Source: Escherichia coli O157:H7 (GTDB taxonomy: Bacteria > Pseudomonadota > Gammaproteobacteria > Enterobacterales > Enterobacteriaceae). From it: 64,000 bases of DNA. The position numbers are program-made. The stretch lies in assembly GCF_013167455.1 (NCBI RefSeq), contig NZ_CP038328.1; one strand, 5' to 3'. The number at the start of each line of letters is the position of its first letter. Within the stretch, counting starts at the first letter, position 1. Positions 55,301 to 58,300 of the stretch are shown piece by piece.

Positions 55301-58300
55301 TCGTCAGTTGGGACTGACGTTGCCGGTAATCGGAGTAACGGCTAATGCGTTGGCTGAAGAGAAGCAGCGGTGTCTGGAGTCCGGTATGGACAGCTGCCTG
55401 TCGAAGCCAGTAACGCTGGATGTTATAAAACAGACGCTGACGGTATATGCCGAGAGGGTCAGGAAATCGCGGGAATCGTAGGACGGATAAGGCGTTTACG
55501 CCGCATCTGGCATTCAGTGCAAATGCCAGATGCGACGCTGACGCGTCTTATCTGGCCTACTTTAATGTAATCTGTTGAAATAATGGGAATCGTAGGACGG
55601 ATAAGGCGTTTACGCCGCATCCGGCAATCGGTGCAAATGCCAGATAAGACACTAACGCGTCTTATCTGGCCTACAGATGATTAGTCTTTATCTGCCGGAC
55701 TTAACGTTACTGAAGAGAGATAATTCAGCAGGGCGATATCGTTCTCGACACCCAGCTTCATCATCGCAGATTTCTTCTGGCTACTGATGGTTTTAATACT
55801 GCGGTTCAGCTTTTTAGCGATCTCGGTCACCAGGAAGCCTTCCGCAAACAGGCGCAGAACTTCACTCTCTTTTGGCGAGAGACGTTTGTCACCGTAACCT
55901 CCAGCACTGATTTTTTCCAACAGGCGAGAAACGCTTTCCGGGGTAAATTTCTTTCCTTTTTGCAGCGCTGCGAGGGCTTTCGGCAGATCGGTCGGTGCAC
56001 CTTGTTTCAGCACGATCCCTTCGATATCCAGATCCAATACCGCACTAAGAATCGCCGGGTTGTTGTTCATGGTCAGAACAATAATCGACAGGCTTGGGAA
56101 ATGGCGCTTGATGTACTTAATTAAGGTAATGCCATCGCCGTACTTATCGCCAGGCATGGAGAGATCGGTAATCAACACATGCGCATCCAGTTTCGGCAGG
56201 TTGTTGATCAGTGCTGTAGAGTCTTCAAATTCGCCGACAACATTCACCCACTCAATTTGCTCAAGTGATTTGCGAATACCGAACAAGACTATCGGATGGT
56301 CATCGGCAATAATTACGTTCATATTGTTCATGTAATAGGCTACCTTGCTACAGCAAGCTCTTGACATAACTGTCAATGTCGCTGATGTATTTTTCTATTC
56401 CTGGAACATCCTTCTCACGAATCAGATGTTCCAGCGTTTCACATAACTGCTTGCCGGGTACCAGATTTAGCATGGCAAATACGCCTTTAAGACGATGAGC
56501 CGTTTGGGCTAACGCAGCAAAGTCACTGGTTGCTGCTTCAGTATACAGCCTCTTAACATCATCCGGTACTGTGTCTACAAAGAGCGCATAATAGCCGCTG
56601 GCATGGAGTTGCGCATTTTCATCTCCGCCCAGAGGCGATTCTGTCACCTCTTCCTGCGCCAGTTGCACTTCAATTAATTGTAAGACCGCTTCCTGCATAG
56701 CGTTGCTCATATTGAAGTTGACGCACAATTGACCAGGCCCAATTTCCCGTACGCCAGACTCATCATCGCTTAAAAGCAAGCCAGAGGCAGTAAGATTAGA
56801 CGGATTATCCGTTAAAAAGATATCATAATCTTGACTAATTAATCTTTCATCGGGTGTGATACAGGTTGCACCCCAATTTTCTAACTGGCGAGTGACAATA
56901 TTCCGAATTTCTGCCGAAGTAACATCCACCATTACGCAGACATCATCCAGTAAACGCTCTTCTTCCTCTTCAACTTCCGGGTCAGCTGCGAGCATTTTGA
57001 TATGCACAGAGTAGCGTGTACCAAGCCCATCCCGCGTTTTGATGTTTAAATGACCGCCCAGTTTACGTGCCAGTTGATCGCTCAGCCAGAATGCCAGCGG
57101 GTCCGCCTTGCCATAGCGATCGTTTTGGGTCTGGTTGATAAACGGGAAGTGCAAATTATCCATTTCATGAATGCTTACGCCTTCTCCGGTGTCCAGAATG
57201 CGGAACGTCAGGCGGTCTTCGGAGGACTCATCCTGATCAACCTCAAGGGTGATTTTTCCCAATTGCGTTGAGGTCACGGCATATTGCATCAGTAGCAGCA
57301 AAATACGTCGTAATGCATCGCGATCGCCGCGGCGCATATCGTGTGCTTTCAGATGATTGTTAATCAGCAGTTGCAGACCTTTACGCTTGATGGCAGGCAA
57401 CACTGAAGGCACAACTTCATCAATTAAATCCTGCACGGAGAACAGCACCGTCTCACTTTTCCAGCTATCGTCCGCAAGCATGTTCGCTAACTGTATTTCA
57501 TCGACCAATCGCACCAGCACATCTGCCTGATTCGCCAGTTGTTTGCTTTCCGGGGCGTTGAGTTTAGCCGCGCTCTCCGCCAGGGACTGTGCGGGTTCTT
57601 TCAGCGCATCGCCAATGTTTTTCATAAAGGTCATCCGCCCCTGCTGGTTTTTCTCATACAGACGCTGCGCCTGCTTGAGTTTCTTGTTTACCAGCACTTC
57701 GCGATCCTGATCGCGAATAATGAAAATTTGTGTGCGCGGCGCAACCTGGCTGCGGAACATGCGGATCTCATACAGCTCGTTATTGATCGTCGCCTGAATA
57801 ATCCCCTGATGCTGTTCCGCCATGGTGGTGATGTTTTGCAGATTCAAATGCGGCAGCAAATGATCGGCAATTTTGTTACTTATGACAGTGCGGTTCGATT
57901 CCTGATCGTGAACCAGCAGGCCGAGCGGCAGCAGTGAGACTATCTCTTCATTGATTGCCCGTAAAATGCGCAATTCGTTATTGACCGCCGTGTTGGGTAG
58001 ACTTTCTGTACTGCGACTGGAGAAATGGCGGAATGTGGTATAGCCAAATAACGCCAGCGCCAGCAAACCGATGTTCAGCAGCAGTGGCAGCAGAATGTTT
58101 TGCAACGTATCCAGCAATAAGGTGCCATAAGGAACCTGCCAGACCAGGCGCATATCGGTAGAGTTGAGTGCCGAGGAGATTTCAATCTTCGTACTGTTAA
58201 AGTGGATACTGACGCTATCCGTTCCTTCTTTCTCATTATCATTGTTTCCCGTTGCCGTCGCGTCTGGCTCAAGGCGGAAACTGTCCAGCGGCATACCCGG

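What the first reader, a model, noticed from the sequence alone, without database searches (positions are those of the whole stretch)
55462..55680. Duplicated REP-containing unit incorporating the rcsC stop codon
A roughly 37-nt segment that includes the last codons and stop of rcsC is repeated about 120 bp downstream, each copy followed by REP palindromes. This is a BIME-type tandem structure in the convergent rcsC/rcsB terminator region. Such elements bind IHF/gyrase and stabilise upstream mRNA, and their copy number varies between strains.
Basis: seen in the sequence. Interest (0 to 1): 0.2.

Follow-up and report, generated by a model that had tools for sequence, protein, structure and literature searches.

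The report
Known REP/BIME-2 array between rcsC and rcsB
The repeat is real but ordinary: it is the catalogued E. coli palindromic-repeat cluster REP162, two tandem 114-bp modules between the converging genes rcsC and rcsB, where it marks the ends of both transcripts and varies from one to four modules between strains.

Summary

Each unit has four pieces:
- 15 nt of rcsC 3' coding sequence, or its copy;
- a Y-type REP;
- a 12-nt linker;
- a Z2-type REP.

This is the BIME-2 architecture, the same as REP325/naRNA4. Rfam naRNA4 matches both units above its gathering score.

The rcsC TAG stop is the TAG of the Y REP's conserved GTAG. The rcsB stop lies 6 nt from the last Z2 REP.

The element is already catalogued as REP162 in K-12. 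A published table places the overlapping 3' ends of the convergent transcripts on its two Z2 hairpins.

Of 5,426 complete E. coli genomes, 4,436 carry the inter-unit junction. About 990 lack it, and all 11 sampled alleles with no inter-unit junction have one unit. About 32 genomes have three or four units. Mosaic units and at least three kinds of one-unit allele point to recurrent unequal recombination.

The IHF claim does not apply, because there is no Z1 REP and no long linker. There is no U-tract terminator either. Already known; low interest.

The parts
52632..55481 (+). rcsC coding sequence (949 aa); stop codon TAG at 55479-55481
   Evidence: ORF list; NCBIfam RcsC equivalog, 1840 bits; the same end is annotated in an identical RefSeq genome
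55463..55477 (+). Head 1: the last 15 nt of rcsC before GTAG (codons K-S-R-E-S). This is the genuine coding sequence that was carried into the duplication.
   Evidence: Left edge of the repeat. RcsC ends in RVRK[ST]RE[SGA] in genera with no REP at this position, e.g. Kluyvera, whose gene ends TCGCGGGAATAA.
55478..55512 (+). Y-type REP of unit 1, with the GTAG end at its 5' side. Its GTAG supplies the rcsC stop codon, and an in-frame back-up TAA follows two codons later (55488-55490).
   Evidence: 33 of 35 nt identical to the Y REP of REP325; own hairpin -12.2 kcal/mol; translation reads RKSRES*DG*
55513..55524 (.). Short head-to-head linker of unit 1 (12 nt, TTCAGTGCAAAT)
   Evidence: Same length as the REP325 linker but only 3 of 12 nt identical
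55525..55560 (+). Z2-type REP of unit 1, with CTAC at its 3' end. It coincides with a published overlap region of convergent transcript 3' ends.
   Evidence: 32 of 36 nt identical to the REP325 Z2 REP, including a compensatory T/A to A/T change in the stem; hairpin -21.4 (+ strand) and -20.5 (- strand) kcal/mol. K-12 2316942-2316985 maps to window 55523-55566.
55561..55576 (.). 16-nt spacer between the units (TTTAATGTAATCTGTT); origin unresolved
   Evidence: Spacer plus head 2 occurs only at this locus in E. coli genomes. It matches the 16 nt after unit 2 at 6 of 16 and the 16 nt before unit 1 at 3 of 16.
55577..55591 (.). Head 2: a non-coding copy of the rcsC 3' end (GAAATAATGGGAATC)
   Evidence: 12 of 15 nt identical to head 1, P about 1e-5
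55592..55626 (+). Y-type REP of unit 2
   Evidence: 34 of 35 nt identical to the REP325 Y REP and to Y of unit 1
55627..55638 (.). Short head-to-head linker of unit 2 (12 nt, ATCGGTGCAAAT)
   Evidence: 10 of 12 nt identical to the linker of unit 1
55639..55674 (+). Z2-type REP of unit 2. Its stem is a perfect 12-bp palindrome, so the usual stem mismatch is lost. It coincides with the second published overlap region of transcript 3' ends.
   Evidence: Inverted repeat I4, 100% complementary; 29 of 36 nt identical to the REP325 Z2 REP; -23.9 kcal/mol on the rcsB-sense strand. K-12 2316832-2316874 maps to window 55634-55676.
55481..55557 (+). Rfam naRNA4-like module 1 (Y + linker + Z2)
   Evidence: RF02564, 73.8 bits against a gathering score of 59.5
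55595..55671 (+). Rfam naRNA4-like module 2
   Evidence: RF02564, 73.7 bits against a gathering score of 59.5
55681..56331 (-). rcsB coding sequence (216 aa). Its stop codon (55681-55683) lies 6 nt from the GTAG end of the Z2 REP of unit 2.
   Evidence: NCBIfam RcsB equivalog, 467.7 bits; RefSeq annotation; sequence

Best explanation
This is REP162, a BIME-2 cluster of repetitive extragenic palindromes.

Anatomy (shown): two tandem modules, each an inverted pair of a Y and a Z2 REP joined by a 12-nt linker. They fill the 199-nt gap between the converging genes rcsC and rcsB.

Origin (inferred from sequence): one module sat flush against the end of rcsC, so that the REP's conserved GTAG provides the TAG stop codon. 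A local 114-bp tandem duplication then copied that module together with the last 15 nt of rcsC and a 16-nt spacer. The array has since gained and lost modules by unequal recombination or slippage between units, giving 1 to 4 modules in present-day strains.

Function (inferred from published data on K-12 and on other REPs, not measured in this strain): the stable hairpins act in both directions as 3'-end-forming elements. They are barriers to 3'-to-5' exonucleases and partial, factor-dependent terminators. Here they take the place held by a single short hairpin in most other Enterobacterales.

A possible side effect follows from the hairpins beginning 3 nt (rcsC) and 10 nt (rcsB) after the stop codons. 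Terminating ribosomes must melt them, which could mildly damp translation of both genes.
For: Anatomy:
- The repeat is 98 nt x 2 at 90% identity with a 114-nt period.
- The palindromic units match the Y and Z2 REPs of REP325 at 33-34 of 35 and 29-32 of 36 nt, with the same 12-nt linker length.
- Rfam naRNA4 matches both units above its gathering score.
- This fits the published BIME-2 definition: y + z2, short linker, tandem copies, copy number variable between strains (PMC3333891).

Catalogue and 3'-end data:
- Table 16 of the Harris et al. 2026 preprint lists REP162, 'Convergent', operons rcsB:micF:rcsD:rcsC. Its two transcript-overlap regions map onto the two Z2 hairpins.
- The same preprint shows that REP325 both attenuates readthrough and stabilises the upstream mRNA. 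It also reports that convergent gene pairs with a REP are more highly expressed.

Structure: the intergenic RNA folds far better than shuffled sequence on both strands (z = -5.9 and -8.5).

Origin:
- Head 1 and head 2 agree at 12 of 15 nt.
- The RcsC C-terminus ...RKSRE(S) is conserved in genera with no REP there, so the coding copy is the original.
- Spacer plus head 2 occurs only at this locus.

Dynamics:
- Intergenic lengths of 85, 199, 313 and 427 nt correspond to 1, 2, 3 and 4 units with mosaic internal units.
- At least three kinds of one-unit allele exist.
- The junction is in 4,436 of 5,426 genomes with 4,471 places, and 32 genomes have a unit flanked by spacers on both sides.

Replacement of a simpler hairpin: in 69 other Enterobacterales loci the rcsC-rcsB gap has a median of 63 nt, usually with one hairpin.
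Against: - No expression, 3'-end or protein data exist for this strain or for strains with different unit numbers. The functional part rests on K-12 data from others and on analogy with REP325.
- There is no U tract, so termination cannot be intrinsic.
- REP162 does not appear in the part of the preprint's Rho-binding table that is held. The termination mechanism therefore remains open; the mapped 3' ends could be exonuclease stops rather than termination sites.
- The same preprint reports that terminal REPs are not in general associated with longer mRNA half-lives (section title).
- The origin of the 16-nt spacer is unexplained.
Confidence: 0.85

Rival explanations
1. The array has no selected function. 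It is a neutral or selfish REP cluster, maintained and shuffled by recombination or by the REP-associated transposase, and its copy number simply drifts.
For: - Copy number ranges from 1 to 4, with several independent one-unit alleles and an allele with an 18-nt internal deletion. None disturbs the flanking genes.
- REP occupancy of this intergenic gap is sporadic across Enterobacterales.
- The Z2 REP of unit 2 has lost the usual stem mismatch.
Against: - Transcript 3' ends of both genes map on the Z2 hairpins in K-12, so the element takes part in transcript-end formation whatever its origin.
- E. coli has no other hairpin in this gap, whereas most relatives have one.
- All 17 Escherichia alleles read base by base kept at least one complete Y-Z2 module. 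A wider sample of genomes was assessed by unit count only.
Confidence: 0.3
2. The main role is translational. Because the REP hairpins start within 15 nt of both stop codons, ribosomes stall at termination. The mRNA is then cleaved and the protein is tagged by tmRNA, lowering RcsC and RcsB output (the mechanism of Liang, Rudd and Deutscher 2015).
For: - The rcsC stop is inside the GTAG of the Y REP, and the Y stem starts 3 nt after it.
- The rcsB stop is 6 nt from GTAG and 10 nt from the stem of the Z2 REP.
- The 15-nt rule is described in PMC12306157.
Against: - By that account roughly half of the REPs analysed (260 of 496) meet the same distance rule, so this says nothing special about the locus.
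- The original paper is not held, so I could not check whether rcsC or rcsB were tested.
- No ribosome-profiling or tagging data were available.
- This does not explain the duplication.
Confidence: 0.25
3. The two modules are genes for naRNA4-like nucleoid-associated RNAs that, together with HU, bridge cruciform DNA and condense the chromosome.
For: - Rfam RF02564 matches both units at 73.8 and 73.7 bits against a gathering score of 59.5.
- The two-hairpin Y + linker + Z2 layout is the same as in naRNA4.
Against: - The Rfam model in effect recognises any Y-Z2 module; a third hit lies at 32442-32505 in another BIME.
- The 2026 preprint, whose authors include the senior author of the 2015 naRNA4 study, found that REP325 and naRNA4 do not measurably compact the nucleoid. 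It also found no stable HU-cruciform-RNA complex.
- No promoter-like site lies in or beside the array.
Confidence: 0.07
4. It is a BIME-1 / RIB-type element that recruits IHF.
For: One IHF-like match with one mismatch lies in the spacer, at 55568-55580 on the - strand.
Against: - BIME-1 is defined by a Z1 REP, a single copy and a long conserved L linker that carries the IHF site.
- Here the REPs are Y and Z2, the linker is 12 nt, and the unit is tandemly repeated.
- One-mismatch IHF matches are no more frequent in the window than by chance (49 found, 54 expected).
Confidence: 0.03
5. The duplication is an assembly artefact, an expanded repeat.
For: None found.
Against: - The identical 551-bp region occurs in other complete genomes.
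- The junction is in 4,197-4,436 of 5,426 complete genomes, including K-12 MG1655, W3110 and BW25113.
- The two units differ at 10 positions, which a collapsed or expanded repeat would not produce.
Confidence: 0.005

Closest known systems
REP162 of E. coli K-12 (the name used in Table 16 of Harris et al. 2026, bioRxiv 10.64898/2026.03.23.713779)
   Same: It is the same locus and the same element. K-12 has the same two units and the same 199-nt intergenic gap, and is 98% identical over 551 bp.
   Different: There are a few point differences: the penultimate rcsC codon is GAA here and GAT in K-12, one base differs in the Y REP of each unit, and one in the spacer.
REP325 / naRNA4 (yjdM-yjdN BIME-2 array; Rfam RF02564)
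   Same: The module is the same: a Y REP with GTAG at its 5' end, a 12-nt linker and a Z2 REP, repeated in tandem with a constant spacer. Both lie in the 3' UTR of the upstream gene.
   Different: REP325 has 6 modules with a 100-nt period and a 17-nt spacer unrelated to its flanks, and it sits between two genes transcribed in the same direction. REP162 has 2 modules (1-4 between strains) with a 114-nt period and a 31-nt tail-to-tail spacer, half of which is a copy of the rcsC 3' end. It sits between converging genes and overlaps a stop codon. The linker sequences differ (3-5 of 12 nt identical).
BIME-2 family (Gilson/Bachellier classification as summarised in PMC3333891)
   Same: Y + Z2 REPs in inverse orientation, a short linker, tandem copies, a unit sequence that is well conserved within the locus, and a copy number that varies between strains.
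   Different: I could not assign the tail-to-tail flank to the published s, l or r types, because no reference sequences were available. The flank here is specific to this locus.
REPIN (REP doublet forming a hairpin; Bertels and Rainey; from my own knowledge)
   Same: Unit 1 folds as one long hairpin in which the Y and Z2 REPs pair with each other (-48.6 kcal/mol).
   Different: In unit 2 the two REPs have diverged, so each folds on its own. Mobilisation by the REP-associated transposase was not tested.
REPs close to stop codons that damp translation, e.g. the nrdAB REP (Liang, Rudd and Deutscher 2015, as described in PMC12306157)
   Same: A REP lies within 15 nt of the stop codon, here for both converging genes.
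   Different: At rcsC the stop codon is actually part of the REP. No experimental data exist for this locus.

Membership tests
BIME-2 | Made of a Y and a Z2 REP in inverse orientation | tested here: met
   Y units are 33 and 34 of 35 nt identical, and Z2 units 32 and 29 of 36 nt identical, to the Y and Z2 REPs of REP325, which PMC4550694 labels Y and Z2. GTAG and CTAC are at the outer ends.
BIME-2 | Short head-to-head linker (S) rather than the long L linker | tested here: met
   12 nt in both units, the same length as in REP325
BIME-2 | Tandem copies at a locus, with a number that varies between strains | tested here: met
   Two units here. 1, 2, 3 and 4 units are seen in other genomes. The junction is in 4,436 of 5,426 genomes, and 32 genomes have three or more units.
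BIME-2 | Conserved GTAG 5' of an imperfect palindrome with a stem mismatch | tested here: met
   GTAG/CTAC is present at all four REPs. The internal mismatch is present in Y1, Y2 and the Z2 REP of unit 1. The Z2 REP of unit 2 is a perfect 12-bp palindrome, so one of the four departs.
BIME-2 | Tail-to-tail flank of type s, l or r | tested here: inconclusive
   The flank is 31 nt and occurs only at this locus in E. coli. It differs from the 10-17-nt flanks of the other BIMEs examined. No reference s, l or r sequences were available.
BIME-2 | Bound and cleaved by DNA gyrase in vivo | not testable with these tools
   Shown for a subset of BIME-2 elements (PMC6379681). I could not locate this locus in the supplementary tables held.
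BIME-1 (RIB/RIP, IHF-binding) | Z1 REP + Y REP, single copy, long conserved L linker with an IHF site | tested here: not met
   The REPs are Z2-like, the linker is 12 nt, and the unit is repeated. There is no IHF consensus beyond a chance-level one-mismatch match.
naRNA4 (Rfam RF02564) | Covariance-model score at or above the gathering threshold | tested here: met
   73.8 and 73.7 bits against 59.5, + strand
naRNA4 (Rfam RF02564) | Expressed as a discrete HU-binding RNA | not testable with these tools
   No expression or binding data for this locus. The nucleoid role itself is disputed.
Intrinsic (Rho-independent) terminator | G+C-rich hairpin followed directly by a U tract | tested here: not met
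   No terminator-like site on either strand in 55300-55900. Many other Enterobacterales have A/T runs flanking the hairpin here: 9 loci with both an A run and a T run, 24 with one of them.
Bidirectional transcript-end element between convergent genes | Overlapping 3' ends of the two convergent transcripts mapped on one hairpin | not testable with these tools
   Not measurable here. Published for K-12: two overlap regions fall on the two Z2 hairpins of REP162.
Stop-codon-proximal REP that attenuates translation | REP within 15 nt of the stop codon | tested here: met
   The rcsC stop is inside GTAG, and the rcsB stop is 6 nt from GTAG. The rule is as described in PMC12306157.
Stop-codon-proximal REP that attenuates translation | Ribosome stalling, mRNA cleavage and tmRNA tagging | not testable with these tools
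   No data. The primary paper is not held.

The most novel reading that the evidence does not exclude
Because the rcsC stop codon lies inside the first Y hairpin, every terminating ribosome melts the left arm of module 1. The long Y-Z2 hairpin of that module therefore cannot protect translated rcsC mRNA. The second, ribosome-free module would then be the working stabiliser and terminator. On this reading, the 1-to-4 module polymorphism would set different RcsC-to-RcsB/RcsD ratios, and so different thresholds of the Rcs envelope-stress response (capsule, biofilm, motility), in different E. coli lineages.
Probability: 0.08. Interest if true: 0.4.

Novelty: already known. Interest (0 to 1): 0.1.

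Why it matters
It matters little beyond correct annotation. The element is a catalogued REP cluster of a well-described class, and variation in copy number between strains is a textbook property of that class.

Three details are new here, and all are minor:
- A census of unit number at this one locus in 5,426 genomes: about 81% with two units, about 18% without the inter-unit junction (one unit in all 11 sampled alleles with no inter-unit junction), and about 0.6% with three or four.
- The duplicated unit carries 15 nt of rcsC coding sequence. This shows that the array grew by local tandem duplication rather than by insertion of a second mobile copy.
- E. coli has put a REP array where most Enterobacterales keep one short hairpin.

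If unit number affected RcsC or RcsB levels, it would be a small natural dial on envelope-stress signalling. Nothing here shows that it does.

Tried and rejected
- **Tandem Repeats Finder** reports nothing in 55300-55850. The array has only 1.86 periods. The repeat finder and direct alignment show the repeat clearly, so this is a limit of the tool.
- **Are the last rcsC codons derived from a dispersed BIME flank motif?** The 8-mer GCGGGAAT before GTAG also occurs in the reverse complement of the REP325 spacer. I rejected the idea for three reasons: the match is weak and post hoc (71 of 5,000 shuffles score as well), spacer plus head occurs nowhere else in E. coli genomes, and RcsC ends ...KSRE(S) with near-identical codons in genera that have no REP there.
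- **Is the 16-nt spacer a decayed copy of the rcsB 3' end, or of the sequence upstream of unit 1?** The matches are 6 of 16 and 3 of 16, which supports neither. The origin is left unresolved.
- **IHF site:** only a chance-level one-mismatch match.
- **Intrinsic terminator or promoter in the gap:** none.
- **Liang et al. 2015:** the paper is not held, so I used its description in PMC12306157.
- **Gyrase cleavage at this locus:** the supplementary tables of PMC6379681 have no gene names, and no W3110 coordinates near 2.3202 Mb could be found.
- **A main-text discussion of REP162:** none in the library.
- **Dating the insertion with E. albertii, E. fergusonii and Salmonella:** the one genome scan returned 78 distinct loci spread over Enterobacterales (74 read) and only one divergent Escherichia (L009). 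The other tools give no organism names, so I did not pursue this.
- **The K-12 RefSeq record** as held lists no repeat_region features. The name REP162 therefore comes from the preprint's table.
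Full report
**What is in the sequence**

Window 55463-55674 holds two copies of a 98-nt unit, at 55463-55560 and 55577-55674. They are 90% identical and start 114 nt apart.

Each unit splits into four pieces:
- a 15-nt head, GAAATCGCGGGAATC in unit 1 and GAAATAATGGGAATC in unit 2;
- a 35-nt palindromic unit that begins with GTAGG;
- a 12-nt linker;
- a 36-nt palindromic unit that ends with CCTAC.

Sixteen nucleotides (TTTAATGTAATCTGTT) separate the units.

rcsC is 52632-55481 on the + strand and rcsB is 55681-56331 on the - strand. Both are NCBIfam equivalog matches, and the same ends are annotated in an identical RefSeq genome. The rcsC stop codon TAG (55479-55481) is the TAG of the first GTAGG, and an in-frame TAA follows two codons later, inside the palindrome. 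The rcsB stop lies 6 nt from the GTAG end of the last palindrome on its own strand.

**What kind of element it is**

I compared the units with REP325, the yjdM-yjdN array whose units are described as a Y and a Z2 palindrome joined by a constant linker (PMC4550694; sequence from K-12).
- The GTAGG-first palindromes are 33 and 34 of 35 nt identical to the REP325 Y unit.
- The CCTAC-last palindromes are 32 and 29 of 36 nt identical to the REP325 Z2 unit, including a compensatory T/A to A/T exchange in the stem.
- The linker has the same length, 12 nt, but a different sequence.
- The Rfam family built on one REP325 unit (naRNA4, RF02564) matches both units at 73.8 and 73.7 bits, above its gathering score of 59.5.

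This is the published definition of BIME-2: y and z2 REPs in inverse orientation, a short linker, tandem copies, and a copy number that varies between strains (PMC3333891).

It is not BIME-1, the IHF-binding class. There is no Z1 unit and no long L linker. The only IHF-like site is a one-mismatch match, and such matches are no more common in the window than in shuffled sequence (49 found, 54 expected).

The element is already catalogued. Table 16 of the Harris et al. 2026 preprint lists it as REP162, 'Convergent', with the operons rcsB:micF:rcsD:rcsC.

**Is it real and not an artefact**

The REP tail pattern occurs 11 times in the window against 0.14 expected. The 551-bp region is 100% identical in other complete genomes and 98% identical in K-12. 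The inter-unit junction is found in 4,197 of 5,426 complete E. coli genomes by megablast and in 4,436 by blastn. The two units differ at 10 positions. An assembly artefact is excluded.

**Copy number in the species**

Intergenic lengths of 85, 199, 313 and 427 nt correspond to 1, 2, 3 and 4 units:
- 85 nt: strain 12089.
- 199 nt: the window and K-12.
- 313 nt: strains 14EC033 and M18.
- 427 nt: strain MS 115-1.

One search found the junction at 4,471 places in 4,436 genomes, with at most three per genome. Thirty-two genomes have a unit flanked by spacers on both sides. This fits roughly 29 genomes with three units and 3 with four.

About 990 genomes (18%) lack the junction.
- The 11 alleles read base by base that lack the inter-unit junction have one unit.
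- An evenly spaced listing agrees: 7 of 40 rows were single-piece, full-length matches to a one-unit query.
- Two of ten independent contigs carrying the same RcsB also have the 85-nt gap.

Internal units of the longer arrays are mosaics of unit 1 and unit 2. The one-unit alleles come in at least three forms with different crossover points. One allele has an 18-nt deletion inside a Z2 unit. Together these point to repeated unequal recombination or slippage between units.

**How the duplication arose**

The repeat extends 15 nt upstream of the REP into rcsC coding sequence (12 of 15 nt identical, P about 1e-5). I tested which copy is the original.

In 74 loci from other Enterobacterales, RcsC ends in ...RVRK[ST]RE[SGA] or a one-residue-shorter variant. 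In Kluyvera, for example, the gene ends TCGCGGGAATAA with no REP behind it. Head 1 is therefore ancestral coding sequence, and head 2 is its non-coding copy. Spacer plus head 2 occurs nowhere else in E. coli genomes, even at low stringency, so it is not a dispersed BIME motif. The array grew by local tandem duplication of a 114-bp segment.

A divergent Escherichia genome (L009) has unit 1, the spacer, head 2 and a collapsed single palindrome. The duplication is therefore also found in a divergent Escherichia genome.

The source of the 16-nt spacer is unresolved.

**What it replaces**

In 69 other Enterobacterales loci, rcsC and rcsB are always convergent and the gap has a median of 63 nt (range 31-207). 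The gap usually holds one hairpin, often with A or T runs. REP-like palindromes with GTAGG/CCTAC appear only sporadically: in some Citrobacter, one Enterobacter, 'Escherichia sp. ESNIH1' and Pseudescherichia. E. coli has no hairpin with a U tract in this gap on either strand.

**How it most likely works**

*Shown here.* The intergenic RNA folds much better than shuffled sequence on both strands (z = -5.9 and -8.5). The individual Z2 hairpins are about -20 to -24 kcal/mol. In unit 1 the Y and Z2 units can also pair with each other into one long hairpin that includes the stop codon.

*Published for K-12.* The two 'overlap regions' of convergent transcript 3' ends in Table 16 of the preprint are 2316832-2316874 and 2316942-2316985. 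They map onto window 55634-55676 and 55523-55566, which are the two Z2 hairpins. The same work shows that REP325 both attenuates readthrough (partly Rho-dependent) and stabilises the upstream mRNA. It also reports that convergent pairs with a REP are more highly expressed.

*Inferred.* REP162 serves both genes as a 3'-end-forming hairpin barrier.

*Caveats.* REP162 is absent from the held part of their Rho-binding table. They also report no general link between terminal REPs and mRNA half-life.

*A possible second effect.* REPs closer than 16 nt to a stop codon are reported to stall ribosomes and lower translation (Liang et al. 2015, as described in PMC12306157). Both stop codons here meet that distance rule. 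But by that account about half of the REPs analysed meet it as well, and nothing has been measured at this locus.

**Alternative roles**

The nucleoid-RNA reading (naRNA4 with HU) follows only from the Rfam match, which recognises any Y-Z2 module. The nucleoid role has been questioned by a 2026 preprint that shares its senior author with the original study.

Gyrase binding is documented for a subset of BIME-2 elements, but I could not check it here.

**Verdict**

The element is already known (REP162, BIME-2), and its variability is a known property of the class.

The small additions are the species-wide count, the evidence for local duplication that includes coding sequence, and the cross-genus comparison. 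Interest is low.

Noticed in passing
window 59332-59425 (-): MicF antisense RNA gene (Rfam RF00033, 116.8 bits against a gathering score of 79), lying between rcsD and ompC as expected for this region.
   Followed up: no
window 32361-32555: A second BIME-2-like array: five palindromic units that alternate Y-like and Z2-like, with head-to-head junctions lacking a linker and 10-11-nt tail-to-tail spacers (AAATCCGAGCC, AAACCGAGCC). There is one naRNA4 hit at 32442-32505 (63.4 bits). The array ends 8 nt from the stop of the ORF 32562-34847 (-).
   Followed up: partly
window 39318-39405 and 30903-30940: Two further REP sites. One is a tail-to-tail REP pair between the convergent ORFs 35543-39295 (+) and 39436-40206 (-). 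The other is a single REP that starts 5 nt after the stop of ORF 30247-30897 (+). REPs near stop codons are thus common in this window, but only rcsC has its stop codon inside a REP.
   Followed up: partly
window 49927-52357: Upstream of rcsC the identical RefSeq genome annotates yfaQ as a pseudogene with an internal stop (window 49927-51576), followed by yfaP (51581-52357). rcsC starts only 275 nt after yfaP, so the ato genes appear to be absent in this strain. In K-12 the ato genes appear to lie between them: a published operon list shows atoB convergent with yfaP-yfaQ.
   Followed up: partly
window 55639-55674: The Z2 palindrome of unit 2 has become a perfect 12-bp stem (GCCAGATAAGAC / GTCTTATCTGGC). 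It has lost the two-base stem mismatch, which was shown to be needed in a y REP for binding by the REP-associated transposase.
   Followed up: no
window 55473-55475; L002, L005, L006, L008, L097, L098: The penultimate rcsC codon is polymorphic: GAA (Glu) here and GAT (Asp) in K-12 and several other strains. This coding polymorphism lies inside the duplicated head.
   Followed up: no
L007 (strain F9792) and L100 (strain 042): Unusual alleles of the array. F9792 has an 18-nt deletion inside the Z2 unit of unit 2 (intergenic gap 181 nt). Strain 042 has two units, both with a unit-1-type Z2, a divergent spacer (TTTGTTGTAATCCATT) and a mutated first Y unit.
   Followed up: partly
L013, L015, L064 (Citrobacter); L011 (Enterobacter asburiae); L018, L022: Other genera carry their own REP-type palindromes in the rcsC-rcsB gap, in different arrangements. 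Citrobacter has a tail-to-tail pair starting a few nt after a TAA stop. E. asburiae keeps a classical A/T-flanked hairpin and has a REP pair as well. The gap looks like a recurrent landing site for REPs.
   Followed up: partly
window 55469-55477 compared with L004 (REP325 spacer): The 8-mer GCGGGAAT directly before GTAG at the rcsC end also occurs directly before a GTAG in the reverse complement of the REP325 spacer. It is weakly significant and post hoc (71 of 5,000 shuffles score as well). I treated it as coincidence, but it is not explained.
   Followed up: partly
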